The notes under the pieces: model-generated
Told to the model about the DNA's origin: nothing
The model's input: the letters and a program-made list of their open reading frames with translations, nothing else
Database searches by the model: none
Program-made: the position numbers and the translations under genes
Shown here: piece after piece, positions 4,074 to 63,556 of the stretch
How positions within the stretch are numbered: the first letter of the stretch is position 1
Layout of the letters: each line of letters starts with the position of its first letter
From: a virus
Virus record (IMG/VR): IMGVR_UViG_3300032083_003484
Coordinates: 1 to 64,000 of that record
Strand: one strand, 5' to 3'
DNA: 64,000 nt

Positions 4074-5024
4074 TTATGAATTATTTTTTAAGAACCTGAT
4101 TGGTATCTGGACGGTGTAACCAGTTGACGCACCATAGATTGTAACAAATGAGTCAATATACTTAACATTGGCTGCAACGTCGGTATAATAGTCAATTGTA
4201 GCGCTAGTATCAACAGAACCGAATAAGTCAAAGTAGTAATCTGATTCTGCCAAGTCAATCTTCGGACGAATACGAAGCTGCAATATATTTCCTCTAGGGC
4301 CTGAAATAACCTGACCAGGTTGGCTACTGTTATTTCTATTTGCCCTTACGAAGGACGTGTCTGTTGTTGCACTAACCATGTAAGTTGCAATATCATCATC
4401 ATCAACGTTACTTGGGGTCTTTTCTGTAAGTTCTTCACTATTCAAGCCAGAAATTAGACCACCTAGTCGATTGTCCATCTCGATTATAAATGTATCTTCT
4501 CTAAGATCGGATGATAGGCCAGCGCCGGGGCTAATAGACGTAGTGTCTAAGCCTTGATCTACCCTAATGAATCGATTGCCGGTAGAGGATAGTTCATCGT
4601 CAGCAGGAGAGCGCAAGATGCCAATGTTATCCCCTGAGAATTTATCGTTTGTTGTTTTATCGACAGGGATTAGGAATGTATCTGCACCAAAATTTGCTGC
4701 TACTGGTCCTCGGCTGTCCGTATCGTTGAGTTTGATGACCGGTAGGTAAAGCAAGTTTGGATTGTTGATTGTTATGATCTTTGACTTCATTGACGACCCA
4801 TTGTTCGTGAATGCTTCAAAGATAGGAGTTTGGAGGATTTCTAGATCGAAGTAGGCAGAGCCACTTGGGTGGTTCTTGTCATAAAGGCCATAATCAATCT
4901 CATCGTCGCCTAAAGCAAACTTTGTGATTCTAAATGTTCCTTTTCCTTCTGCTAGGCGTCGTCGCCCTTCGTCTGTCAAGACTGCATCGAGTATGATGTC
5001 GCCTGAATTGTCTAAAAATGCCAT
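4074..5024 (-). CDS. Virion structural protein with tail-collar-like N-terminus
   Basis: VLTDEGRRRLA...ITKFALGDD N-terminal motif; SD AAGGAG and CTATTTA motif upstream. Confidence 0.6.
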   Translation of the reverse strand: MAFLDNSGDIILDAVLTDEGRRRLAEGKGTFRITKFALGDDEIDYGLYDKNHPSGSAYFDLEILQTPIFEAFTNNGSSMKSKIITINNPNLLYLPVIKLNDTDSRGPVAANFGADTFLIPVDKTTNDKFSGDNIGILRSPADDELSSTGNRFIRVDQGLDTTSISPGAGLSSDLREDTFIIEMDNRLGGLISGLNSEELTEKTPSNVDDDDIATYMVSATTDTSFVRANRNNSSQPGQVISGPRGNILQLRIRPKIDLAESDYYFDLFGSVDTSATIDYYTDVAANVKYIDSFVTIYGASTGYTVQIPIRFLKNNS

Positions 5025-5044
5025 GCATGAACTCCTTTTCTTAC

Positions 5045-5055
5045 TATAAATAGTT
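5045..5055 (-). promoter_or_regulatory. Candidate late promoter AACTATTTATA
   Basis: Intergenic, 20 nt upstream of the ATG at 5024; recurrent motif. Confidence 0.65.
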
Positions 5056-5074
5056 GTTAAATAATTTTATTCTA

Positions 5075-8000
5075 TTATGTATAATCAATACCACCACGGC
5101 TAATAGAGCCTAGGGTGTTTGCGGCGTCACCTTCTACTACCTCACGGGCCGTACCTGCTCTTTCACCGGCAGTCTCAAACTGTTCTTCACGAATGTTTTC
5201 TAGAGCCCGGTCCATAAGAGTGGCCCTAGGGCGCCCAGTTGGCACTGGGTCGCCTTCGTTTCTTCTTGCTATGGCATCTTGTATGTCTTTCTCTGTGACA
5301 GTATCTGGTACCATAGTTCTTCTTTCTTTTGTTGCAATGTTAAAATCGTTTAGAACATATTTAAACTCAACAAAGATTGACTTACCTGTTTTTTTAGATT
5401 TTAACTCAAGCATATACCTTTGATTGATAATGTTGTTTTGTGATTCTACCTTATCTGGATCTACACTTGATGGTAAAGCGCCTCTACCGAGAACTACTGA
5501 TGAAACATCCTCTGATTTCTTTCCATTAAATTGCCCACGAACAAAAGAGATCTCTTGAGCGTTAGGCCTGATCTTTATAAACCTTCTTACATTTTTGGAA
5601 TTAGTATCTTTTTTAATTTTTCTGAACTCTCCATCAGCCCCTAAAACACCAAACATTTCTTCAAGAGAAAATGTAGAAAGCAAAGGCTGGAGCGCTCCTT
5701 CGTTATCGACTAGCGTAAACTTAAATACTTCAGTTGGGTTGGAAATGTTTCCGTGAAAGTCCAAGGTTCTGAAAAGATAGTAATAGTCTACATTAGCAAC
5801 TATGTTATCCATAAAGGAAGTGCCGTCTGTGCTTTGATCTTTAGATGTTACACTTCTTATGATTCTTTTTCCTCTAACAAAATCTCGAATCGATTCTGGC
5901 TTTCGGTCTAACCTGAATACTTCGAAGGCTGCTGGAGTTTCATCTGAGTGGAATCTTATCTTTTCATCTTGTCTTACTTTTTGGGACTGTCTTATCTTTT
6001 GGAATAAAGCTCTATCTCCACTCTCAAGCACCACAGGCATTGCGTGTTCTGTTGCGTTCATTGATGAGAGTCTAATCTTGACTCGGTCACTAAAATCTTT
6101 TACCGGATAAAACTCAACGTTTGGTCTAACTGGGGGAGCGTCTGTTAGGACTGAATTCTCAAAAGCCAATGGAAGTTCTATTATCTTTGGCTGCTGACTG
6201 GTTCTTACCTTTGAACCTAAAACGTATCTGTCTTCTTCGGGGCGGGACCCAAGGTCAACACCCAATTCTATATTAGTGGCCACCTCATAGCGATAAGAAC
6301 TTTCTAAAACAAATGCTAATGCGGATAAAGAGTATTCGTATTCTTGATTTGGCTTGACTTGAGTATCAAAAAACTCTACAAGTTCTTCTGGTCTGTTGAA
6401 GATAAAGAACTGCTGACGGGCGCCTGTTAGGGTGTTTCTTTTACCAACCTTGTAAGCAAAAATCTCAAAATAGTTGTTTTTTCTTGACAAAAATAGGTCT
6501 TTTAGATTTGGAAGGTTGTCTGATGCGATATTTCCGATGGTTGTTTTAAGTTGATCAAGAAATTCAAAATTTGAAATAATTCCTTCATTTCTATAGTTGG
6601 TTAAGTTGAGATTATTCTTGTAGGGTGTTATAAAGCTTGAATTAAAACGCTCTACTTGCTCAAAAATGTCTGGCTTACCAATTATTTCAGTTTGTCCGGT
6701 TGACCTATTAATGGTGAATGGTTGTGTTGTATTGTTGAAGATTGTAGAAAAATCAAACTCTCTTGCCTCTCTAGTTGAAGTTGTTGTTGGTTGACCGGTA
6801 AAGTAATCAGTAATGGAAAGATTTTTTTGTCTTGATGTTATCTCACTTGCAGATGTTGCCGTGCCGTCCATCAAGTTGAGCATTATTTCTGCTTCTAGGT
6901 TATAGTTTGTTAGGATGTTCAACAAATTAAACTGGCTTGAAGGAAGATCCGAGATTTCTATCCTGTTGCCGAATGGGAAGAGTGATTGAAAATTAAAGTT
7001 TTGTGAGACTGTCGGATCAATCAAAATTAATCTTCTCTTTTGTTGGTCGGGCAGCTCTCCGTATGCCTCTTCAAACTCAACATTATTAAGGTTTTTGATT
7101 GAGATGCCAAACTTGTTGTATAAGTCTCTTGTTAGTTCACCAGATTGCTGACTAGTTTGCACTGGCTCTAAATCAAAAGGCCCAAAAAACAGCTTTTCTT
7201 TTAGTTCGTTGATATAGTTTGTTATTGTTGCAGTTGGCCGGTCTTCTTGGCGCATGTTATCTACCAAGGCTTCTAAGTACTTTATTATGCTAAAGAGATA
7301 GCCTGATGGCATCAAGCTTTCCTCAAAGCCTGTATAGAATCGGCTTGAGGGTGCTCTTTCTCCGAATTCGTACTCTCTAGATAAGAAATTGTAGTTCTCG
7401 TCGACAATAAATCTTAGATCAGATACTGCTTCTAAATTTGACTCTTTCTCCATCTTTACTAGCGTCTCGGGCACTTGCGCTAGAGTGTTAATGCTTAAAT
7501 CTAAGTATGAAGTGGCTATTTCTGATCTATCGACAAACGGCTTCATTCCTACCGGGCGAATAGTGAATTTTACAGAACTAAGGCCGGCTCTGGGTGCTAA
7601 GAGCGAAATTGTTTCTTCACACTTGTCCATCAGTGCGTGTGTGGCATAGTCATCGATAAGGTTGTATTTCCGACCTTCGAAATCGCCTCTCTGCAGGAAC
7701 TCGATGAAAACTTCCCGTGAATGAAAAACTTTTACCCATTCTAAGCTTCGAAAGTGAAACTTAATGTCTTGGAAAGATTCATAAAATAAAGATTGTTCGT
7801 CTTCGCCAACCTTTTGGACTGTTTTGTTTTTTATAAATCGAATCTTTGAGAAAGGTATACGGTATTCGAACTGAAAACTTTCCTGGAATCTTATAGTGTC
7901 ACCATCAAACGTTACTCGATCGTCAAATTTGGCAATGTTGCCTATCGTGACTTCTTCATCGGTTGTTGTTTTGTATCTGGCCAGTCCGGTTAGATAACGG

Positions 8001-52679: not shown

Positions 52680-53006
52680 TTATTTTCTAAGGCTATTTTC
52701 TAGCCGGTTTAGGTGTATAGTGTCTATCCCTAAAAACAAAGCTGTTTCTTGTTGGGATGAACAAACAGATTTGGCATACTTTACTAATGCCTCTATAGTT
52801 ATTTTTTTTATTGATCTTGCTAAACTTAGGCCGTACATCTTGCCATTTATCTTGTGGCTCAAAGACTCAAGCTTGATTGCTATAATGTCTTCTAGTGGCA
52901 GGTTTGATATACGAACTAAGAATCTATCGTCAATCAAATTTTCTTCTTTAAGATTTTTTATGATTGAGTATTTAGATTTTTTTATTTTACTTTTTGTTTT
53001 TCTCAA
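52680..53006 (-). CDS. Basic protein with a C-terminal Fis-like HTH
   Basis: ALVKYA..SQQETALFLGID. Confidence 0.55.
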   Translation of the reverse strand: MRKTKSKIKKSKYSIIKNLKEENLIDDRFLVRISNLPLEDIIAIKLESLSHKINGKMYGLSLARSIKKITIEALVKYAKSVCSSQQETALFLGIDTIHLNRLENSLRK

Positions 53007-55757
53007 TTAAAGTAAGCTAGCTAGTTTGTGAAGAAGGTCCTCTGATAAGTCAAGCTGGTCTTCGACCTCGGCTTCAGGTTCAGGCTCTTCGACCTCAACA
53101 GAACCGGTAGGGTCTTCTACTTCCACTTCCGGAGCAGGTGTTATTTCTGCTTCCTGGTCCTCTAAATGAGCTTCGATGTTCGGAAGAATATAATCTTTAA
53201 AAGCTTTCTCGTCTTCAGGGTTAGATAAGGTCTCATAAGTATTGAGAATCTGTGTCTGGATCTTCTTGAGTGTTACAGCTGCTTCTCTCATCCCTGTTAA
53301 CTGGTCAGGGTCGGTTGGTATATCATCGCCAGATACTAGCTTCTCTTCTTCGGTCCTAGAATCTCCTTCTTCAGGATCGATTACCGGTTCTTCTTCCCTA
53401 CCAAGACCTAAGTCCATTCTATTTGGGTCACTCGGAGCGACACCAATCTCGATATCTTCTTCTAACTCTAAGTTGGCGGCCGGGTCAGTCTCTGAACTCT
53501 TTGAGATGTCTGCGATACCTAAGAGGTTTTTGATGCCAATCATTAAGTGGTTGGAATACGCCTGTCTTTGTTCTGACGAGGTTGTAAGATCTTTATAGTC
53601 ATCCTGAATTGATGGGATAATATTTTTTAAGAGATCACGAAGTTTATTGACGCCGGTGTTTTGATAAACAACTTCATCGGACTGTTTTGCTTCTGTGAGG
53701 ATCCCACGAATAGCTTTACGTAGGCGTTGCTCTTCGTTTAGTTGTTTTCTTTTATTCTCGGTGATAATCTTTCGTATTGCTTTTCGAAGTTTGAGTTCTT
53801 CCATTAAATCTTCTCTTTTTATGAAATAGTTTTCTTGCATCTCTCTATAAATAGTGCGCTTTTTAGGTTCATCGCCTACAGGGGCAGCAAACCCACCAAC
53901 TGCTCCTCCCCCCATCGCAGACATTTCATCCAGCGAAGATTCCGAAGAAGGGGGTTGGTCTTTTCCCAGAATAACTAAAACCTCATCAGGGTCAACGCCC
54001 TGCGGTATGAATGGAGTTATATCCTCTCCTTTCGAAAAGGCTTCTCTAAAGTCTGTAGCACTCAATTCCGGAGGTTGTGGAGTGAATGCGTGTTCCATTG
54101 GATCTAAGACCTTTACTCCCTCTGCCGCATAGTTTTGTACACTTTTTGCAAAACGACTTTGATCGCCGCCTTTTGTGCTAGTACCTAATAGGACTTTCTC
54201 ACCGGGCTTTGCCACTTCTTCTACATGCTTGTAGGCTGCGGTTACTGGTGATGCTGATGGGGACTCTTCGACTCTTACGTTTCTAAGGCCAAGTGCTTTT
54301 GCGTATACGTCAAATATTTGTTTTGCCTGCTCTGACGTTACCTGAACTCCGTTTGCTTCTCTGGTCTTCGGAGAGACGTATACGATAACCTCGTCTGCGA
54401 TGCCGGCATAGTGTGCTACCATATCCATATGGCCACGATGAGGCGGTTTGAAGCTTCCTGGTATTACTGCGACTATCTTTTCTTGACCTTCTTGTTCTGT
54501 TAGAGTGCTAAGGGCCGGTATCTTTCCTCGGCCATATTTAAACATACCCAAGATCTGGTTGATGGGAGCAAAATTACCGGTAAATTTATAGGTGCTTCCA
54601 TTCCAGTCAAAGACAAAACCTTCGGCGGCAGTAGTAACACGATCGGCATCTTTTAATTTTTCTAGTTGAGACTTGAGAATTTCTATAGCCTCTTCATGAC
54701 CGGAGGCCTCTATAACTTTTATTGCGTTGGCTACTTCATCTTTCAGTCTTGCTACTTCTGTTGAGTTGTCAAGAATAAAAAGTGATTGGAGGCCTTCTAA
54801 AACATCAACAGTAAAGTCGTGGACAACACTCTCTACGGGAGCAATCGCTGCTTTCAAAAACTTTGCATCTGCTTCTTTAACCATACGACTAAAAGCTGCC
54901 CGCTGTTCGGAAGGGATAATGCTTTTAAGTTTTGTTACTGAGTATGGGCCGCTACGTTGACCGGAGGCGAATCGATTTACCAAGAGAGCTTTTGCTTCGT
55001 CTGGTAGGAAGCCAAAACTGTCTTCTACCATTGGGGTTATTCTAGCAACAAGATAATCTAATACAGTATCATTATCTGAAACTCCAACCCTGGATATTGT
55101 TTGTTCTAAAGCAGCAAGATTCCTATTCAGTGTCTCGTCACTTAGTTTGTCTAGCTTTCGAATCGGGTTAACCATAAACCCAAACTCTTCATTGGCGACG
55201 GCCTCTTGCATCTTTACAAGGGCGTTCCGAAGAGTGTTAAAGCTCTCAGAGACATCAACATCCTCAACTTGGCCCGACTCTTTATTAAAATAGGCATGAC
55301 CAACGTGGTGGATGGTTAGATTCTTGGTATCATAGTTAATGACGTTTGCGTTTCTAGGATCTTGTATCTCGGCGTTATAATAGATGTTTGCATCTGGTCC
55401 GAAGATCTTTTCCTGTGTCTCTGCTGGAAGTGACTGAACTGCTTTCTCGAAAACAGAAAAAGCATCGTTGAACGCTTGCTCAACAGAACCTCGCCCAGCA
55501 AACTTCGCAGCAAGGCCGGCGGCGTCTAGGCCGCCTTTCTTGATGTTCCCCTTGTTCCTGGCTGCTTTGGCCTTACCATCCTTTACAGAATAAGAAATGT
55601 AAAGGTTCTGACCATCAGTCTTCTCTGTTCCCTCAAGTTCGCCCTGGGAAGCTGCGATGAATATTTCTTTCATCTGCTTAAAAGTTAACGCCGGGTTATC
55701 ATAAAGGTGAGACATGTGACCGGCGACGCCTCCTTCGTTAACGAACATTGAAGTCAT
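53007..55757 (-). CDS. Fusion: ATP-dependent ligase-like (KxDG) domain + HIGH nucleotidyltransferase + acidic/helical C-terminal domain
   Basis: TEKTDGQN (motif I), AEGFVF (IV), YKF (V); IPGSFKPPHRGH...SATDFR. Confidence 0.7.
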   Translation of the reverse strand: MTSMFVNEGGVAGHMSHLYDNPALTFKQMKEIFIAASQGELEGTEKTDGQNLYISYSVKDGKAKAARNKGNIKKGGLDAAGLAAKFAGRGSVEQAFNDAFSVFEKAVQSLPAETQEKIFGPDANIYYNAEIQDPRNANVINYDTKNLTIHHVGHAYFNKESGQVEDVDVSESFNTLRNALVKMQEAVANEEFGFMVNPIRKLDKLSDETLNRNLAALEQTISRVGVSDNDTVLDYLVARITPMVEDSFGFLPDEAKALLVNRFASGQRSGPYSVTKLKSIIPSEQRAAFSRMVKEADAKFLKAAIAPVESVVHDFTVDVLEGLQSLFILDNSTEVARLKDEVANAIKVIEASGHEEAIEILKSQLEKLKDADRVTTAAEGFVFDWNGSTYKFTGNFAPINQILGMFKYGRGKIPALSTLTEQEGQEKIVAVIPGSFKPPHRGHMDMVAHYAGIADEVIVYVSPKTREANGVQVTSEQAKQIFDVYAKALGLRNVRVEESPSASPVTAAYKHVEEVAKPGEKVLLGTSTKGGDQSRFAKSVQNYAAEGVKVLDPMEHAFTPQPPELSATDFREAFSKGEDITPFIPQGVDPDEVLVILGKDQPPSSESSLDEMSAMGGGAVGGFAAPVGDEPKKRTIYREMQENYFIKREDLMEELKLRKAIRKIITENKRKQLNEEQRLRKAIRGILTEAKQSDEVVYQNTGVNKLRDLLKNIIPSIQDDYKDLTTSSEQRQAYSNHLMIGIKNLLGIADISKSSETDPAANLELEEDIEIGVAPSDPNRMDLGLGREEEPVIDPEEGDSRTEEEKLVSGDDIPTDPDQLTGMREAAVTLKKIQTQILNTYETLSNPEDEKAFKDYILPNIEAHLEDQEAEITPAPEVEVEDPTGSVEVEEPEPEAEVEDQLDLSEDLLHKLASLL
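53846..53855 (-). promoter_or_regulatory. Candidate internal late promoter ACTATTTATA before an in-frame ATG (53840)
   Basis: ACTATTTATAGAGAGATG inside the 916-aa ORF, at a domain boundary. Confidence 0.45.
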
Positions 55758-55758
55758 C

Positions 55759-56013
55759 TTATTTTCCTTCTTCTAGAACTTTTATTTGTTCTTGTAGAGT
55801 CTTTAACCGCTCATCCATCCTTCGGGATTCTAAGCATGCTTGTTTAAGTTCGTGAAGAGCCATAACAAGCGCCCGCCGAGAACTAACAGTACGAGGTTTA
55901 AGTGACTCTAGATTCCTTATAGCAGACTCTAAGATGGCACTTAAGCCAGGTTTGTTTTTGGATTCGTTAAGGTATAAAAAATCATTAAACTTTTTTTCTA
56001 TACTCTTTAACAC
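55759..56013 (-). CDS. Small coiled-coil hypothetical protein
   Basis: 84-aa ORF abutting its neighbours; several L-x-E sites. Confidence 0.55.
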   Translation of the reverse strand: MLKSIEKKFNDFLYLNESKNKPGLSAILESAIRNLESLKPRTVSSRRALVMALHELKQACLESRRMDERLKTLQEQIKVLEEGK

Positions 56014-56014
56014 T

Positions 56015-56260
56015 TTATCCCTCTGCTAGATCAGCCGGAGCCGCCTTCTTCGCTTTTCGTCTAGGAGCCGGCTTGGCTTCTTTCTTCGCAACTGGCTCGG
56101 GCTTAGGCTCGGGCTTAGGTGCTGGCTTGGGTGCTGGCTTGGGTGCTGGCTTGGGTGCTGGTACTGGTTTTGCTGCCGGCTCTACTGCAGCTGCTTTTCG
56201 GGCCTCGGCAGCTCTTATTGCTCGGAGCTTTCGAATCCTTCTTGTTCTTGGTGATGCCAT
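56015..56260 (-). CDS. Basic Pro/Ala/Lys-rich protein (H1-like composition)
   Basis: SD GGAG; Arg-rich N-terminus; PKPA repeats. Confidence 0.6.
   Translation of the reverse strand: MASPRTRRIRKLRAIRAAEARKAAAVEPAAKPVPAPKPAPKPAPKPAPKPEPKPEPVAKKEAKPAPRRKAKKAAPADLAEG
56094..56165. repeat. 12-bp tandem repeat, six units, encoding PKPA/PKPE
   Basis: ggctcgggctta x2, ggtgctggcttg x3, ggtgctggtact. Confidence 0.9.
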
Positions 56261-56262
56261 TT

Positions 56263-56763
56263 TTATTCTCCTTTTTTGATTCCAAACTTTCGGAGCAGCA
56301 TGTTATGAAGCATACTGTTCTTTTTGTCATGGTAATCTTTTGATTCAGTTTGTGTTTCTTTATTTTTTGATGTTTCTTGCTTTCCTTCACTCATTGGGTA
56401 TCCTCCGATTTGATTTTGATATCTTTTCATCAACCGACCTGAACCTATGTGGAAAGCTTCATCTTCCATTGCTTTTAGATTTGGGTCAGCGTCAATGTCG
56501 TGTGTCTTGACCATTAGATCTTCGCCACGACAGTTTTGTGAATGATGCACTAACTCATGAGAAAGAGACCTTAGAATGTCTTTTGGGTGTCTTCCGGTAG
56601 TATAAATAGTCACCACCATAGAAGAAGGATCATAATGAGCAGTATACCCCATTGGATTCTGCGCATTTTCTTGATCATCTACAAAGTTTATTGTTGGATC
56701 TTGATCGAATCCAAGTTGCTTTTTAGCAAACGGATAAAACTCATTTACCAAATCTTCATACAT
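56263..56763 (-). CDS. Zincin-like metallopeptidase domain protein
   Basis: RHPKDILRSLSHELVHHSQ...EDEA. Confidence 0.7.
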   Translation of the reverse strand: MYEDLVNEFYPFAKKQLGFDQDPTINFVDDQENAQNPMGYTAHYDPSSMVVTIYTTGRHPKDILRSLSHELVHHSQNCRGEDLMVKTHDIDADPNLKAMEDEAFHIGSGRLMKRYQNQIGGYPMSEGKQETSKNKETQTESKDYHDKKNSMLHNMLLRKFGIKKGE

Positions 56764-57259: not shown

Positions 57260-57438
57260 TGTTTATTAATATAAAGTACCGGAACTTCTATGTGTTCAAT
57301 AATAGTATTCATGCTTTCTAGCTTAGTAAACCATATTCTATCATACTTTACGTAAATGTCAACAACTAAATACAGTTCTTTTTTATACAGTATTAAATCA
57401 CCAAGTTCCAAGTTCTTTACAAACGACTCTCCAATCAC
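57256..57438 (-). CDS. Small hypothetical protein
   Basis: 60-aa ORF coupled to both neighbours; LELGDLI. Confidence 0.45.
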   Translation of the reverse strand: MIGESFVKNLELGDLILYKKELYLVVDIYVKYDRIWFTKLESMNTIIEHIEVPVLYINKQ

Positions 57439-62040: not shown

Positions 62041-63192
62041 TTATAGACCCAAAGTCTCTTTTACGACTGCAGCAATTGTTTCTTCTAAAGAAAGTTCTTC
62101 GTTTTTGCGATATCTTTCATCTGGTCGCCTAGGAAACATAGATCCTCGCCTAGTGGCTGTCGCCGGCGTTGGGTTTGGTGATGAGCCGGCCATTGATCCT
62201 CGCTTTGGAAGTTCATAGTCCAAGTCGATTCCGGGCTCCATAAGGTCGGCATCCGGATCTTCTGGCATACCCTGGTATTCGGCGTCCTCATAGTTCATAA
62301 GATCATCTATAGCGCCCTCAGCTTCTTTCTCGCTCCGAAATCGGAACCCAGGCCGAACGTTGTGTATTTCTTTAAACATATCTGAAAAAAGATCGTTTAG
62401 ATAATCCAAGCCCATTTCCGGCTTGGCTGTTTCGCCTTCTCGGATATCGCCGGGCTTCACACCACCAGCAAATGCGATTCGAAGAGTTTTCTTGACGCCT
62501 TCATCACCTGGAGAGTGCAGCCATCGATCAATTCTTTCACGTGACCGAGAAATTTCACGACCAACTTCTCCGACAGTGTTATAACCAAGCTCGACACGCA
62601 GTTCCTCGACTGACTTTGGATCGGCCGCAAACTGATTTAGGGTAACAATTTTTTGCCGATCGTTGAGGTTGACTTTGTCATCCTTGATTGCTTGGACCAT
62701 AGCATCGAAAGCTTCATTGCGCTCTTTGTCAAGAAGAATCTGCTCGGGGTTCTTAATTTTTGGAACCAACGGATAGATTTCGCTCTTGTCGGACATACTT
62801 GTGATATCCGGCTCGCCTTCAGCTGCGCCGCCACCGGCAAAAGGAAGCTCTTTGCGTCCTGCTCGGAAACTGTCAATTAATGCATTTTTCACAATAGCGC
62901 CGGCCCAAGTGGAGAATGCAGAATCTCCTCGGAACCCACCAATTTGAGTCATGATTTTGATAAGGGCGCTTTGCATTGCGTCCTCGGCGTCAGCTTCGTT
63001 TCCGCCGGCTAGCTTAAGCGCAAGAAAACGATGCTTTTTTGAAAGTCTGGTTAGAAGTTCTTCCATTGCCGGACTATTTGGGTTTTCTTTGGCTTTGGCA
63101 GCAAGCGCTTCCATGCTGTCCCCTTTCTCTTCATCAATGCGTGCAATCTCCTCTTGGATGATTTGCAGCAGCCTAGTTTTCTTGATTTTCAC
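62041..63192 (-). CDS. RpoE-like ECF sigma factor with N-terminal leader and C-terminal extension
   Basis: Region 2 DAEDAMQSALIKI...FRGDSAFSTWAGAIVKNALID; region 4 LNDRQK...SVEELRVELG..VGEVGREISRSR; SD AAGGAG, GTG start. Confidence 0.85.
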   Translation of the reverse strand: MKIKKTRLLQIIQEEIARIDEEKGDSMEALAAKAKENPNSPAMEELLTRLSKKHRFLALKLAGGNEADAEDAMQSALIKIMTQIGGFRGDSAFSTWAGAIVKNALIDSFRAGRKELPFAGGGAAEGEPDITSMSDKSEIYPLVPKIKNPEQILLDKERNEAFDAMVQAIKDDKVNLNDRQKIVTLNQFAADPKSVEELRVELGYNTVGEVGREISRSRERIDRWLHSPGDEGVKKTLRIAFAGGVKPGDIREGETAKPEMGLDYLNDLFSDMFKEIHNVRPGFRFRSEKEAEGAIDDLMNYEDAEYQGMPEDPDADLMEPGIDLDYELPKRGSMAGSSPNPTPATATRRGSMFPRRPDERYRKNEELSLEETIAAVVKETLGL

Positions 63193-63223
63193 TTTAAAAA
63201 ACTCCTTATAAGTTATGTTTTGT

Positions 63224-63234
63224 TATAAATAGTT
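63224..63234 (-). promoter_or_regulatory. Candidate late promoter AACTATTTATA
   Basis: Between the upstream terminator and the ECF sigma SD. Confidence 0.65.
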
Positions 63235-63243
63235 AGTCAAAAC

Positions 63244-63274
63244 AAAAAAAGCCCCGCCGAAAAAGGCGGGGCTT
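63244..63274 (-). terminator. Rho-independent terminator
   Basis: AAGCCCCGCC-TTTTTC-GGCGGGGCTT followed by a T-run on the minus strand. Confidence 0.9.
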
Positions 63275-63295
63275 GGATTCGCAAGATTTTTTTTC

Positions 63296-63556
63296 TTAGA
63301 AGTCTATGCCGTCATCGTTTGCCGGGAGGGCTTCGGAAGTTTCCGCATTTCTTAGCGCATCAACTTCTGCATTTGCGTGAGCGGATGCCTCATCGACATC
63401 AGCACCGGCAGCTTCGGCTTCTTCGAAAGCGCTTTTCCAAAATTCCCACTCTGCGTCGGTAAGACCTTCAATTGGCATGGGGCTTTTGGATTCGGCAAGA
63501 GCAGCCTCAAGCTCTTCTTTGATAATCTTGACAAGTTTTTGTTTTGTGATTTTCAT
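63296..63556 (-). CDS. Small acidic protein with MKITKQKLVKIIKEE leader
   Basis: SD AAGGAG; leader shared with the ECF sigma. Confidence 0.7.
   Translation of the reverse strand: MKITKQKLVKIIKEELEAALAESKSPMPIEGLTDAEWEFWKSAFEEAEAAGADVDEASAHANAEVDALRNAETSEALPANDDGIDF

What the first reader, a model, noticed from the sequence alone, without database searches (positions are those of the whole stretch)
53007..55757. Ligase-like + HIGH nucleotidyltransferase polyprotein with protease-type sites at domain boundaries
Seen: an N-terminal domain with covalent nucleotidyltransferase motifs (EKTDG, EGFVF, YK) is fused to a HIGH-family domain (GSFKPPHRGH, SAT.R) and an acidic tail. Hydrophobic-x-E sites fall at the boundaries (FVNE|GG, TLTE|QE, SLDE|MS), and two internal copies of the leader-like helix occur (LRKAIRKIITE, LRKAIRGILTE). 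The gene lies just upstream of the tmRNA/tilS/tRNA module. Inference: a packaged polyprotein cut into separate enzymes and delivered with the DNA, perhaps for RNA repair against anticodon nucleases and/or NAD+/nucleotide restoration (NMNAT-like) against nucleotide-depleting defences. Substrates are unknown.
Basis: partly seen in the sequence, partly recalled or inferred. Interest (0 to 1): 0.75.

Follow-up and report, generated by a model that had tools for sequence, protein, structure and literature searches.

The report
Protease-cut ligase-like phage enzyme cargo
A very common but unstudied gene of marine T4-like phages joins an RNA-ligase-like enzyme, a PPAT/NMNAT-like adenylyltransferase and a late helical protein, separated by sites that copy the phage's own capsid-protein cleavage site, so it is probably loaded into the head, cut up there and perhaps delivered with the DNA.

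Summary
ORF 53007-55757 (-) encodes 916 aa. Residues 9-415 fold as a ligase/capping-type nucleotidyltransferase, with every named motif invariant and a roughly 200-aa helical insert. Residues 426-598 are an intact HIGH adenylyltransferase, closest to PPAT and NadM-type NMNAT. Residues 640-916 are a helical, acidic "TAIL".

New here:
- TAIL is a separate gene directly downstream in 34 of 53 related loci, with its own late-type promoter written into the last codons of the enzyme gene. Fusion recurred several times.
- The two enzyme domains occur in both orders.
- In 126 cluster representatives, the ligase domain either starts at M|GG (55) or follows hydrophobic-x-Glu|GG (71), without exception.
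- The linker after the HIGH domain (LDE|MSAMGGGAVGGFAA) copies the predicted maturation site of the phage's major capsid protein (LRE|SSTMAGADVEGFAA). Profile searches confirm this in both directions.
- A T4 gp21-type head protease, which cuts after L/I-x-Glu, is present in the related genomes.

The polyprotein/head-cargo reading is therefore substantially supported but unproven. Substrates are unknown, and RNA repair or NAD+ supply are guesses. The "leader-like helix" claim failed profile tests. The same stretch was noted once more in this scan, in an overlapping window of the same genome, without follow-up. The family has at least 1,777 clusters at 50% identity.

The parts
53007..55757 (-). 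Whole ORF, 916 aa plus stop: short leader, LIG, HIGH, capsid-site-like linker and TAIL
55734..55757 (-). 8-aa N-terminal leader MTSMFVNE, ending in hydrophobic-x-Glu just before GG. Candidate propeptide.
   Evidence: pLDDT is below 50. In 126 cluster representatives the position before GG is either the start Met (55) or hyd-x-E (71), with no exception.
54513..55733 (-). LIG: ligase/capping-type (covalent) nucleotidyltransferase domain, aa 9-415
   Evidence: AF2 pLDDT 88.9. The top 23 VIA matches are all ligases or capping enzymes, best NgrRnl 5cot at Z 8.9. Foldseek's top hits are RNA ligases. Pfam RNA_ligase is hit in 9 of 35 distant members.
55611..55625 (-). Motif I, EKTDG; K46 is the predicted AMP-accepting lysine
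   Evidence: Invariant. hhalign's best local match pairs it with EKIHG of T4 Rnl2, at a non-significant E of 0.17.
54648..55280 (-). All-helical insert of about 200 aa (aa ~160-370) between motifs IIIa and IV, which sets this family apart from known ligases
   Evidence: Secondary structure of the model; it has only generic helical matches.
54579..54623 (-). Motifs IV and V: EGFVF ... YKFTG (E379, G380, K391, T393)
   Evidence: Invariant columns
54495..54503 (-). L419-T-E421, candidate cleavage site in the LIG|HIGH linker
   Evidence: Kept in 62% of homologues. [LI]xE occurs in 77 of 86 linkers against 26.4 expected.
53964..54482 (-). HIGH-motif adenylyltransferase domain, aa 426-598 (HRGH at 440-443, SATDFR at 566-571)
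   Evidence: Pfam PF01467 at 25.7 bits against a cut-off of 21. PPAT by phmmer at E 2.6e-4. The family profile's best match is NMNAT MJ0541. Foldseek finds PPAT at E 4e-6, TM 0.70-0.75.
53877..53939 (-). Linker SSLDE|MSAMGGGAVGGFAAPV (aa 607-627): candidate protease site that copies the capsid protein's predicted maturation site. Disordered in the model.
   Evidence: LxE is kept in 90% of homologues and the E in 98%. The linker profile hits the major capsid protein at aa 55-72 with E 5e-4 as the best non-self hit among 208 ORFs. The reciprocal search gives only LIG-HIGH linkers among 3,721 ORFs. Both motifs are present in 10 of 10 paired genomes.
53846..53854 (-). Internal CTATTTATA late-promoter-type motif, 5 nt before the M640 ATG and 42 nt before the M652 ATG
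   Evidence: The motif is strand-specific and lies before head genes in G001. A homologous motif lies about 30 nt before stand-alone TAIL genes.
53010..53840 (-). TAIL (aa 640-916), a formerly separate late gene: a basic 46-aa helix (aa 648-693) holding both LRKAIR repeats, two helical hairpin modules, and an acidic disordered end
   Evidence: It is a separate downstream gene in 34 of 53 forward-type loci. Model. At least 1,314 stand-alone homologues. Composition.
56601..56609 (-). CTATTTATA late-type motif 844 nt upstream of the LIG start, inside the HExxH ORF, with no terminator-like site in between
55759..56013 (-). 84-aa ORF directly upstream, stop and start adjacent (TAAGATG). A conserved partner.
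   Evidence: Immediately upstream in 34 loci; sequence
56263..56763 (-). 166-aa HExxH ORF of the same operon. A conserved upstream partner, fused to LIG in one relative and carrying the same capsid-site-like tag in another.
   Evidence: Homologues in 42 loci. The L044 homologue has DLTE|TSTMAGAAVEGTPA. The L027 protein of 1,564 aa carries HExxH, LIG, DUF4116 repeats, HIGH and the tag.

Best explanation
The gene encodes a head-packaged enzyme cargo built as a small polyprotein.

**How it is made and processed (inferred)**
- It is made from a late-type promoter together with the head genes.
- It enters the prohead.
- The phage's T4 gp21-type prohead protease, which cuts after L/I-x-Glu, cleaves it at up to three inter-domain sites: VNE|GG, LTE|QE and LDE|MSAMGGG. 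The last site imitates the capsid protein's own predicted maturation junction.
- This would release three pieces:
  1. An RNA-ligase-like lysine-adenylyltransferase with a free Gly-Gly N-terminus. This is the same end that 44% of homologues reach simply by starting at Met-Gly-Gly.
  2. A PPAT/NMNAT-like HIGH adenylyltransferase.
  3. A helical, acidic late protein (TAIL). TAIL is a separate, separately promoted gene in most relatives and probably acts as the head-core partner or adaptor.
- The enzymes would then leave the capsid with the DNA, as T4 Alt does.

**What the enzymes do**
Both enzymes transfer AMP, to a lysine and 5'-phosphate or to a phosphate ester. The most likely job is sealing or repairing broken nucleic-acid ends at the very start of infection. 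The HIGH domain would make or recycle an adenylylated cofactor or intermediate.

**Shown versus inferred**
- Shown: folds, catalytic motifs, domain architectures, the gene fusion, site conservation, the capsid-site mimicry, presence of the protease, and the promoter motifs.
- Inferred: cleavage, packaging, ejection and every substrate.
For: **Fold and motifs**
- LIG model at pLDDT 88.9. The top 23 VIA matches are all ligase or capping enzymes, with RNA ligases first: 5cot Z 8.9, then 1xdn, 1s68 and 9do4 at Z 7.9.
- K46, E130, E379-G380 and K391 are invariant.
- PF09414 is hit in 9 of 35 distant members.
- HIGH.

**Modularity**
- HIGH-LIG, LIG-HIGH, LIG alone and HExxH-LIG-...-HIGH all exist.
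- TAIL is split off in 34 loci and fused in 19. The tree needs 12-13 changes, of which at least 3-4 are forced by well-supported branches.

**Sites**
- Among 126 representatives of 50%-identity clusters, 55 start at M|GG and 71 of 71 others have hyd-x-E right before GG.
- Among the IMG/VR loci, 15 of 16 internal LIG domains have [LI]xE|GG.
- The LIG|HIGH linker has the site in 77 of 86 sequences against 26.4 expected.
- The post-HIGH LxE is kept in 90%.

**Capsid-site mimicry**
- The linker profile's best non-self hit in the 208-ORF proteome of the 98%-identical relative G001 is the capsid protein at ELLRE|SSTMAGADVEGFA, E 5e-4; the next hit is at 0.21.
- The reciprocal profile finds only four hits among 3,721 ORFs, and all four are LIG-HIGH linkers.
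- Both motifs are present in 10 of 10 genomes that hold both genes.
- The same tag sits on a second operon protein in L044.

**Protease**
- PF03420 is found in G001 and in 4 of 5 reversed-form records including Microcystis phage Mel-JY01. In those four the LIG gene lies 6-10 kb from the protease, in Mel-JY01 beside the terminase gene.
- gp21 cuts after L/I-X-E, and Alt loses a short N-propeptide and a C-terminal piece (PMC9026906).

**Timing**
- CTATTTATA occurs 15 times in G001, all on the coding strand, against 3.6 expected. In 10 of the 15 it lies 21-112 nt before a called start (mostly 21-41 nt); these genes include the scaffold-like, protease and leader-protein genes.
- It occurs 6 times in the window against 0.72 expected, including 844 nt upstream of the gene and inside it.
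- It lies about 30 nt before many stand-alone TAIL genes.
- Stand-alone TAIL proteins start M-I-D-R-x-E-F-x-x-E, which has the shape of T4 Inh, gp22, gp24 and Alt N-termini.
Against: - There are no protein data: no virion proteome, no cleavage assay, no activity assay.
- L/I-x-E is a three-residue motif in Glu-rich linkers, and its conservation could reflect structure or another partner.
- The capsid protein's cleavage position is itself inferred from T4 gp23 E65|A66. It is the only L/I-x-E in the homologous stretch, and the alignment has a gap there.
- The 'E before GG' could be part of a conserved [E/M]GGxxGH element rather than a P1 residue.
- In this phage the gene lies about 90 kb from the head module, among auxiliary genes.
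- A sigma70-like promoter also lies upstream, so expression need not be only late.
- The window's own record is 42% complete and shows no protease.
- Reversed-form relatives lack the SSMAGG tag.
- If the domains are cut apart, their fusion says little about a shared pathway.
- The second lysine of motif V is Thr.
- Fold-match scores are middling: Foldseek E is 0.014 at best, and Z 8.9 lies in the range the tool calls common.
Confidence: 0.45

Rival explanations
1. It is a cytoplasmic, non-packaged multidomain enzyme: the phage's only ligase, sealing nicks in replication, recombination or RNA repair. The HIGH domain supplies or recycles the adenylyl donor, and TAIL is a nucleic-acid-binding or oligomerising partner. 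The L/I-x-E and capsid-like motifs would be linker features, or would tether the enzyme to assembling heads or the packaging site without any cleavage.
For: - None of five 92-100% complete genomes with the family has a PF01068 or PF01653 DNA ligase.
- BLASTP of T4 gp30, Rnl1, Rnl2 and PseT finds nothing in G001.
- In this phage the gene sits among auxiliary genes (UvdE, PhoH, PD-(D/E)XK nuclease, tmRNA, tilS), not head genes.
- A sigma70-like promoter lies upstream.
- TAIL's first helix is 30% Lys+Arg, and split LIG-HIGH proteins end in poly-basic stretches, which would suit nucleic-acid binding.
- Both domain orders suggest functional coupling.
Against: - It does not explain why the linker copies the capsid maturation site.
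- It does not explain why every N-terminal or internal extension ends in hyd-x-E exactly at GG while 44% start at M|GG.
- It does not explain why TAIL has its own late-type promoter.
- In reversed-form phages the gene lies 6-10 kb from the head protease, and in Mel-JY01 next to the terminase gene.
- T4-like cyanophages are also said to lack a ligase and use the host's (own knowledge), so absence of another ligase is weak evidence.
Confidence: 0.3
2. It is mainly an NAD+ (or CoA-type dinucleotide) supply or counter-defence enzyme. The HIGH domain is an NMNAT that rebuilds NAD+ when host defences deplete it. The ligase-like domain uses or senses that product, for example by NAD+-dependent adenylylation.
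For: - The family profile's best solved match is the NadM-type NMNAT MJ0541.
- Relatives carry the GRFQPFHxGH signature of that group.
- PHROG phrog_3462 (NMNAT) at E 1.7e-4.
- The HIGH part matches the annotated NMNAT of Flavobacterium phages at 29% identity.
- Some sources name the protein NMNAT.
Against: - Structure and single-sequence searches put PPAT first, so the substrate is open.
- No Nampt, Nudix or other NAD-salvage partner is among the conserved neighbours.
- The LIG domain has no NAD+-ligase domain Ia.
- This reading explains none of the site, tag or promoter features.
Confidence: 0.12
3. It is a head-core or scaffold component, or a pseudo-substrate regulator of the prohead protease in the manner of T4 Inh. 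The enzyme folds would be relics and would not work after injection.
For: - TAIL is helical, acidic and late, like core and scaffold proteins.
- A capsid-site mimic could act as a competing substrate.
Against: - All catalytic residues of both enzyme domains are invariant or nearly so across at least 1,777 clusters. That argues for selection on catalysis.
- hhalign finds no relation of TAIL to T4 Inh or gp22.
Confidence: 0.08

Closest known systems
T4 Alt (packaged ADP-ribosyltransferase) and the CTS-bearing internal proteins of T4
   Same: - An enzyme of a T4-like phage that would be loaded into the prohead, trimmed by the gp21-type protease after L/I-x-Glu at a short N-terminal propeptide and at a C-terminal site, and ejected with the DNA (PMC9026906).
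- The phage lineage has the protease.
- Stand-alone TAIL proteins start with a 10-residue peptide shaped like those of T4 Inh, gp22, gp24 and Alt.
   Different: - The enzymes are different: ligase-like plus HIGH adenylyltransferase, not an ADP-ribosyltransferase.
- Several modules sit in one chain, with internal sites.
- The strongest site imitates the capsid protein's maturation junction, including about 12 residues after the cut. This is not described for T4 cargo as far as I know.
- Packaging and cleavage are not demonstrated here.
ATP-dependent RNA ligases of the Rnl2/Rnl5 type (T4 Rnl2, T. brucei REL1, Naegleria NgrRnl; Pfam PF09414)
   Same: - The nucleotidyltransferase fold: best matches 5cot Z 8.9, then 1xdn and 1s68 at Z 7.9.
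- Motifs I (EKxDGxN), III, IV (EGxVF) and the first lysine of V.
- Weak PF09414 hits in distant members.
   Different: - The query has no Pfam hit.
- A helical insert of about 200 aa lies between motifs IIIa and IV.
- There is no Rnl2 C-domain or Rnl5 N-domain.
- A conserved N-terminal GGxxGHxxH element is present.
- Motif V is K-x-T, not K-x-K.
- It is obligatorily linked to a HIGH domain.
- Sequence identity to solved ligases is 8-14%.
Phosphopantetheine adenylyltransferase (CoaD) and NadM/NadR-type NMN adenylyltransferase (Pfam PF01467)
   Same: - HxGH and SxTxxR motifs, a size of about 170 aa, and the fold: Foldseek E 4e-6, TM 0.70-0.75 to PPAT.
- Profile match to MJ0541 NMNAT.
   Different: - It is equidistant from both groups (E about 1e-4), so the substrate cannot be assigned.
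- The FKPPHxGH variant of the motif is used.
- It is always linked to the ligase-like domain in this family.
Encapsulin cargo-loading peptides (analogy only)
   Same: A short C-terminal peptide on an enzyme that would direct it to the inside of an HK97-fold shell.
   Different: - Here the peptide resembles the shell protein's own N-terminal junction and is preceded by a protease site.
- No homology is implied, and no binding has been tested.

Membership tests
Covalent nucleotidyltransferase superfamily (ATP/NAD+ ligases, capping enzymes) | Motif I KxDG with the nucleophilic lysine | tested here: met
   E45-K46-T-D-G49 is invariant in 89 homologues and in 35 distant ones. The lysine sits at the end of a strand and is followed by an antiparallel strand.
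Covalent nucleotidyltransferase superfamily (ATP/NAD+ ligases, capping enzymes) | Motifs III, IV and V in the right order | tested here: inconclusive
   E130 (III), E379-G380 (IV) and K391 (V) are invariant. The second lysine of motif V is an invariant Thr393. The assignment of motifs to residues rests on order and strand position, not on a residue-level superposition.
Covalent nucleotidyltransferase superfamily (ATP/NAD+ ligases, capping enzymes) | Nucleotidyltransferase fold | tested here: met
   The top 23 of 48,161 representative chains are all members, at Z 5.9-8.9 over 157-222 aligned residues. Foldseek's leading hits are almost all members too, though weak (E at least 0.014).
Covalent nucleotidyltransferase superfamily (ATP/NAD+ ligases, capping enzymes) | Forms a covalent enzyme-NMP adduct | not testable with these tools
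   Needs a labelled-ATP or NAD+ assay with a K46A control.
Rnl2/Rnl5-type RNA ligase (Pfam PF09414) | Match to the family model above its threshold | tested here: inconclusive
   The query has no hit at E up to 1. Nine of 35 distant members hit, best E 6.9e-4. hhalign against T4 Rnl2 pairs the motif I residues but at E 0.17.
Rnl2/Rnl5-type RNA ligase (Pfam PF09414) | Family-specific accessory domain (Rnl2 C-terminal domain or Rnl5 N-terminal domain) | tested here: not met
   The model shows no such domain. Instead there is a helical insert at aa ~160-370, and the domain ends at about aa 415.
HIGH-motif nucleotidylyltransferases (PF01467; PPAT, NMNAT) | HxGH and ISxTxxR-type motifs | tested here: met
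   H440-R-G-H443 and S566-A-T-D-F-R571. Both are nearly invariant in the family.
HIGH-motif nucleotidylyltransferases (PF01467; PPAT, NMNAT) | Pfam match above the gathering score, and the fold | tested here: met
   25.7 bits against a cut-off of 21. Foldseek finds PPAT at E 4e-6, TM 0.70-0.75 over about 175 columns.
HIGH-motif nucleotidylyltransferases (PF01467; PPAT, NMNAT) | Known substrate class (4'-phosphopantetheine or NMN/NaMN) | not testable with these tools
   PPAT and NMNAT score alike.
gp21-processed head cargo of T4-like phages (Alt, internal proteins) | The phage encodes a gp21-type (Peptidase_S77) prohead protease | tested here: met
   It is absent from the window's own 42%-complete record. 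It is present in the relative G001, whose LIG domain is 98% identical (E 2.7e-29), and in 4 of 5 reversed-form records.
gp21-processed head cargo of T4-like phages (Alt, internal proteins) | L/I-x-Glu sites at propeptide or linker positions | tested here: met
   The post-HIGH site also matches the capsid protein's predicted site.
gp21-processed head cargo of T4-like phages (Alt, internal proteins) | Late expression | tested here: inconclusive
   Late-type CTATTTATA motifs lie 844 nt upstream and inside the gene, and before stand-alone TAIL genes. The motif's function is inferred from its association with head genes. RNA-library contigs cover the gene but cannot give timing or starts.
gp21-processed head cargo of T4-like phages (Alt, internal proteins) | Found in virions as processed fragments | not testable with these tools
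   Needs virion or virome proteomics.

The most novel reading that the evidence does not exclude
Marine T4-like phages load a set of nucleic-acid-end enzymes into the capsid: an RNA-ligase-like adenylyltransferase, a PPAT/NMNAT-like adenylyltransferase, and in some relatives an HExxH protein.

- Loading would use a tag that mimics the capsid protein's own maturation junction.
- The head protease would cut the enzymes free.
- They would be injected with the genome.

This would be the first case of a ligase-type repair or modification enzyme delivered pre-made by a virion. It would also be a new, transferable cargo signal, acting at the C-terminus or internally, distinct from the N-terminal T4 CTS.
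Probability: 0.3. Interest if true: 0.85.

Novelty: new variant of a known kind. Interest (0 to 1): 0.7.

Why it matters
**Abundance.** The family is very common in ocean viromes. The LIG domain has at least 1,777 clusters at 50% identity, and stand-alone TAIL has at least 1,314 proteins. Public annotation calls it only 'cytidyltransferase-like' or 'hypothetical'. This work gives it a domain map, catalytic residues to mutate and a concrete processing model.

**If the model holds**
- The list of enzymes that phages deliver with their DNA would extend beyond ADP-ribosyltransferases and RNA polymerases.
- It would point to an immediate-early need to seal or modify nucleic-acid ends in marine hosts.
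- It would provide a short capsid-site-like peptide that could be tested as a cargo-loading and release signal in T4-type heads.
- It would show that a conserved C-terminal 'protein motif' (N-Y-L-L) is really a promoter written into coding sequence. That is a caution for motif hunting in compact phage genomes.

**If the model fails.** The phages would still carry a new ligase-like family, which is their only detectable ligase.

Tried and rejected
- **Leader-like helices.**
  - A profile of the seven MK(I/L/T)(T/K)K-type leaders of G001 (most read MKITK..L..IIKEEL) hits all seven and one more protein, but not the LIG-HIGH-TAIL protein.
  - A profile of the TAIL helix hits only itself.
  - The likeness is rejected as unsupported.
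- **T4-type TATAAATA inside the gene.** The only copy is on the non-coding strand. The sense-strand motif is CTATTTATA.
- **TAIL as a homologue of T4 Inh or gp22.** hhalign gives probability below 1%. Only the first ten residues look alike.
- **Sequence-level link of LIG to T4 Rnl1 or Rnl2.** hhalign is not significant: E 0.17 with the right motif I register for Rnl2, and an irrelevant match for Rnl1. The PDB profile search found no ligase.
- **Library searches for LIG and TAIL.** Pfam and PHROGs find nothing for these parts of the query.
- **TAIL fold.**
  - Foldseek against PDB and BFVD listed mainly HIGH-domain matches.
  - The top BFVD rows were unnamed or 'cytidyltransferase-like' phage proteins of about 650-970 aa, plus one of 309 aa that may be a stand-alone TAIL.
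  - No named fold was found for TAIL.
- **Fine co-variation of the linker tag with the capsid site.** Only hints in 11 pairs, for example MSAG with MSAG in L026. No statistic is claimed.
- **Neighbourhood clues to function.** The conserved neighbours are an 84-aa ORF, an HExxH ORF, an HTH-like ORF, PhoH, a PD-(D/E)XK nuclease and a glycosyltransferase. No Pnkp, RtcB, Nampt or Nudix was seen.
- **Literature.** No paper was found on 'RNA ligase' with 'HIGH nucleotidyltransferase' and phage, on Mel-JY01, or on 'cytitidyltransferase'.
- **RNA evidence.**
  - Metatranscriptome contigs at 90-99% identity from four runs of three studies cover the gene.
  - Contigs cannot show starts, strand or timing.
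  - Contig ends at 53826-53832 in three studies are only a weak hint, and no DNA run was laid beside them.

Full report
**What is there.** The window is part of a 76,684-bp IMG/VR record of an uncultured marine T4-like phage that is 42% complete. The ORF 53007..55757 on the minus strand encodes 916 aa. It starts one base after the stop of an 84-aa ORF (TAAGATG).

The protein belongs to a very large family. More than 2,696 proteins were found in the 90%-clustered collection. The N-domain alone finds 1,777 cluster representatives at 50% identity with E up to 1e-3, and 648 with E up to 1e-30. Sources call them 'hypothetical', 'cytidyltransferase-like' or 'NMN adenylyltransferase'.

**N-domain (LIG, aa 9-415).**
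- An AlphaFold model built on 89 sequences is confident: pLDDT 88.9, pTM 0.85, with only residues 1-13 below 50.
- Foldseek against the PDB gives weak E-values (0.014 or more). Its best-ranked hits are nevertheless RNA ligases: Pab1020-type, Trl1 LIG, Rnl2 and Rnl1. DNA ligases and capping enzymes follow, with unrelated folds appearing only further down the list.
- An independent all-against-representatives alignment puts 23 members of the covalent nucleotidyltransferase superfamily in the first 23 places:
  - NgrRnl 5cot at Z 8.9 (187 residues, rmsd 4.1);
  - REL1, T4 Rnl2 and T4 Rnl1 at Z 7.9;
  - DNA ligases at about 6-7.5;
  - capping enzymes at 6-6.5.
- These Z values are middling by the tool's own calibration. 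The uniformity of the list and the motif pattern carry the argument.
- E45-K46-T-D-G, R67-N68, E130, N138/Y142/H150, E379-G380-F-V-F and K391 are invariant in 89 homologues, and again in 35 relatives of only 22-35% identity.
- Nine of those 35 relatives touch Pfam RNA_ligase (best E 6.9e-4).
- What sets the family apart:
  - an all-helical insert of about 200 residues between motifs IIIa and IV;
  - an invariant N-terminal GGxxGHxxH element;
  - Thr in place of the second lysine of motif V;
  - no Rnl2-type or Rnl5-type accessory domain.
- I therefore call it a new ligase-like family, closest to RNA ligases, not a member of Rnl2 or Rnl5.

**Middle domain (HIGH, aa 426-598).**
- Pfam CTP_transf_like is above threshold.
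- PPAT is found by phmmer at E 2.6e-4 over aa 428-588.
- The family profile's best solved match is the NadM-type NMNAT MJ0541, followed by PPATs.
- The model's best structural matches are PPATs, at E 4e-6 and TM 0.70-0.75.
- HxGH and SxTxxR are conserved, so the domain should be active. Its substrate cannot be told.
- Relatives carry the GRFQPFHxGH signature typical of NadM/NadR enzymes.

**The tail is a fused neighbour gene.** I built profiles of the three parts and searched them against 80 IMG/VR loci. They show five architectures:
- LIG-HIGH-TAIL in one chain (19 loci);
- LIG-HIGH followed directly by a separate TAIL gene (34 loci), often with overlapping stop and start;
- LIG alone (421-430 aa);
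- HIGH-LIG in the reverse order, including the cultured Microcystis phage Mel-JY01;
- X-LIG-HIGH.

On a quick ML tree of the LIG domain, the fused and split states need 12-13 changes, of which at least 3-4 are forced by well-supported branches.

Stand-alone TAIL proteins start M-I-D-R-x-E-F-x-x-E-L..LR..IRK.., which aligns to aa ~643 onward of the query. The two 'LRKAIR' helices are therefore the conserved first helix of TAIL. The model shows them as a single 46-residue helix.

**A promoter hidden in codons.** In split forms the LIG-HIGH protein ends ...E-A-L-N-Y-L-L-Q-K-L-G-V. The codons AAC TAT TTA TTA form AACTATTTAT, about 30 nt before the TAIL start.
- CTATTTATA occurs 15 times in G001 (168,882 bp, 93% complete), whose copy of this gene is 98% identical over the LIG domain. 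All 15 copies are on the coding strand, against 3.6 expected.
- In 10 of the 15 it lies 21-112 nt before a called start, mostly 21-41 nt. These starts include a scaffold-like gene next to the capsid gene, the protease, a 3,009-aa protein, the ECF sigma and five 'leader' proteins.
- In the window it occurs six times, all on the minus strand, against 0.72 expected; none of 100 shuffles reached six.
- One window copy lies 844 nt upstream of the LIG start with no terminator-like site between.
- Another lies inside the gene at 53846-53854, 5 nt before the M640 codon and 42 nt before M652.
- I read it as the late promoter. This agrees with an earlier first-reader note that I re-tested here.
- TAIL is thus a late protein with its own promoter. 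The fused gene keeps that promoter, so a TAIL-only product is possible.
- Contigs from RNA libraries of three studies cover the gene, and several end at 53826-53832. This is only a weak hint.

**Protease-type sites.** T4 gp21 cuts after L/I-X-Glu. Virion proteins lose N-terminal propeptides of 7-65 residues, and Alt is also trimmed at its C-terminus (PMC9026906). Four observations bear on this.

1. *Position and conservation.*
   - Of the 24 hydrophobic-x-E sites in the protein, the three at the boundaries are kept in 58%, 62% and 90% of homologues.
   - Three further sites, one in the HIGH domain and two in TAIL, reach 58-87%. Most of the rest are below 15%.
   - The LIG|HIGH linker has [LI]xE in 77 of 86 sequences, against 26.4 expected from shuffles.
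2. *The ligase N-terminus.*
   - Among 147 representatives of different 50% clusters, 126 show the GGxxGH element.
   - Of these, 55 begin exactly M|GG. All 71 others, 62 with short leaders and 9 with LIG internal, have hydrophobic-x-E immediately before GG.
   - The IMG/VR loci agree: 15 of 16 internal domains have the site.
   - Methionine aminopeptidase removes Met before Gly (established knowledge). Both routes would therefore give the same Gly-Gly N-terminus.
3. *Capsid-site mimicry.*
   - The G001 capsid protein reads ...ENQAKELLRE|SSTMAGADVEGFAAVAFPLVRR.
   - LRE is the only L/I-x-E in the stretch homologous to T4 gp23's FLTE65|AEIGG junction.
   - The query linker reads SSLDE|MSAMGGGAVGGFAAPV, and the family consensus is eeLeE|mSsMAGGaVeGya.
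   - A profile of 77 linkers searched against all 208 G001 ORFs finds itself at E 3.6e-11, then the capsid protein at exactly this place at E 5e-4, then nothing better than 0.21.
   - The reverse profile, from 11 capsid proteins, searched against 3,721 ORFs of the loci returns four hits with E up to 1. All four are LIG-HIGH linkers.
   - Both motifs are present in 10 of 10 further genomes that hold both genes.
   - The same tag occurs near the C-terminus of the HExxH protein of the same operon in L044.
   - In L027 the HExxH, LIG, DUF4116 repeats, HIGH and the tag lie in one chain of 1,564 aa.
4. *The protease is present.*
   - Peptidase_S77 is found in G001 and in 4 of 5 reversed-form records.
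   - In those four the LIG gene lies 6-10 kb from the protease, in Mel-JY01 beside the terminase gene.

**Reading.** Because gp21-type proteases act inside proheads, a conserved copy of the capsid's own cleavage junction is most simply explained if the protein is a prohead cargo that is cut there.
- The modular chain then makes sense as a way to co-load several proteins: either domain order, recurrent fusion with TAIL, and occasional fusion with HExxH.
It remains inference, with no protein-level data.
- It also weakens the usual 'fusion means same pathway' argument for the two enzymes.
- What the enzymes do is open. Both transfer AMP.
- These phages have no other detectable ligase: no PF01068 or PF01653 match in five 92-100% complete genomes, and no T4 gp30, Rnl1, Rnl2 or PseT homologue in G001 by BLASTP.
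- End sealing or repair is therefore my first guess, and a cytoplasmic replicative or repair role is the main rival.

**What failed.** Profile tests in both directions do not support the 'leader-like' likeness of the TAIL helices to the MKITK..IIKEEL leader that earlier notes describe on the ECF sigma and small late proteins. TAIL shows no relation to T4 Inh or gp22 beyond the first ten residues.

**Verdict.**
- The protein is a new variant of known kinds: a new ligase-like family joined to a HIGH adenylyltransferase, and Alt-like processed head cargo carrying a new kind of tag.
- My confidence that it is a processed head cargo is about 0.45. Confidence in the fold assignments is about 0.9.

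Noticed in passing
L035:7120-7165 and other split-form loci; homologous place in the window 53815-53830: The conserved C-terminal peptide N-Y-L-L of split LIG-HIGH proteins is encoded by AAC TAT TTA TTA. This is the late-type promoter motif for the next gene (TAIL). An apparent protein motif is really a DNA signal inside coding sequence.
   Followed up: yes
window 56263-56763 (-): - A 166-aa HExxH protein (SHELVHH) with no Pfam hit is a conserved upstream partner in 42 loci.
- Relatives end either in a ...L(F/Y)E.L.K(R/K)W.K peptide or in an LR..IR..I.E helix like the TAIL helix.
- One relative carries the capsid-site-like tag, and another is fused to LIG.
   Followed up: partly
window 56015-56260 (-): An 81-aa protein made largely of PAPKP/PEPKP repeats. 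RNA-library contigs show 24-nt and 36-nt length variants in the repeat (56105-56142), so the repeat number varies between strains.
   Followed up: no
G001 79154-84388 and 167353-167580 (relative of the window; window 62041-63556): Seven late proteins start with MK(I/L/T)(T/K)K..L..; six of them, including the ECF sigma, go on ..(I/V)I(K/Q)EE(L/I). Six of the seven have CTATTTATA 30-32 nt before the start. An eighth protein (G001 4511-5113) matches the leader profile internally at aa 15-33.
   Followed up: partly
L005:14368-14823, L011:4901-5413, L014:7594-8094, L018:9220-9663, L026:16281-16715, L028:14050-14472: Several relatives carry a second, small stand-alone HIGH-motif protein (140-170 aa) 2-4 kb downstream of the LIG-HIGH gene.
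   Followed up: no
window 53826-53832: Contigs from RNA libraries of three different studies end within 7 nt of each other. This lies just downstream of the internal CTATTTATA motif on the minus strand and could mark an RNA 5' end. No DNA run was laid for comparison.
   Followed up: partly
window 57335-57362 (-): A near-consensus sigma70-type promoter (TTGACA-16-TAGAAT with an upstream TG). It could give the operon early expression in addition to the late-type motif.
   Followed up: no
L027:137-4828: A 1,564-aa relative carries eight DUF4116 repeats (E 2e-34) between the LIG and HIGH domains, and an HExxH domain at the N-terminus.
   Followed up: partly
window 52680-53006 (-) and its relatives (42 loci): A conserved 108-128-aa ORF lies just downstream. 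By eye its C-terminal part looks like a Fis-type helix-turn-helix; Pfam gave only a sub-threshold hit.
   Followed up: no
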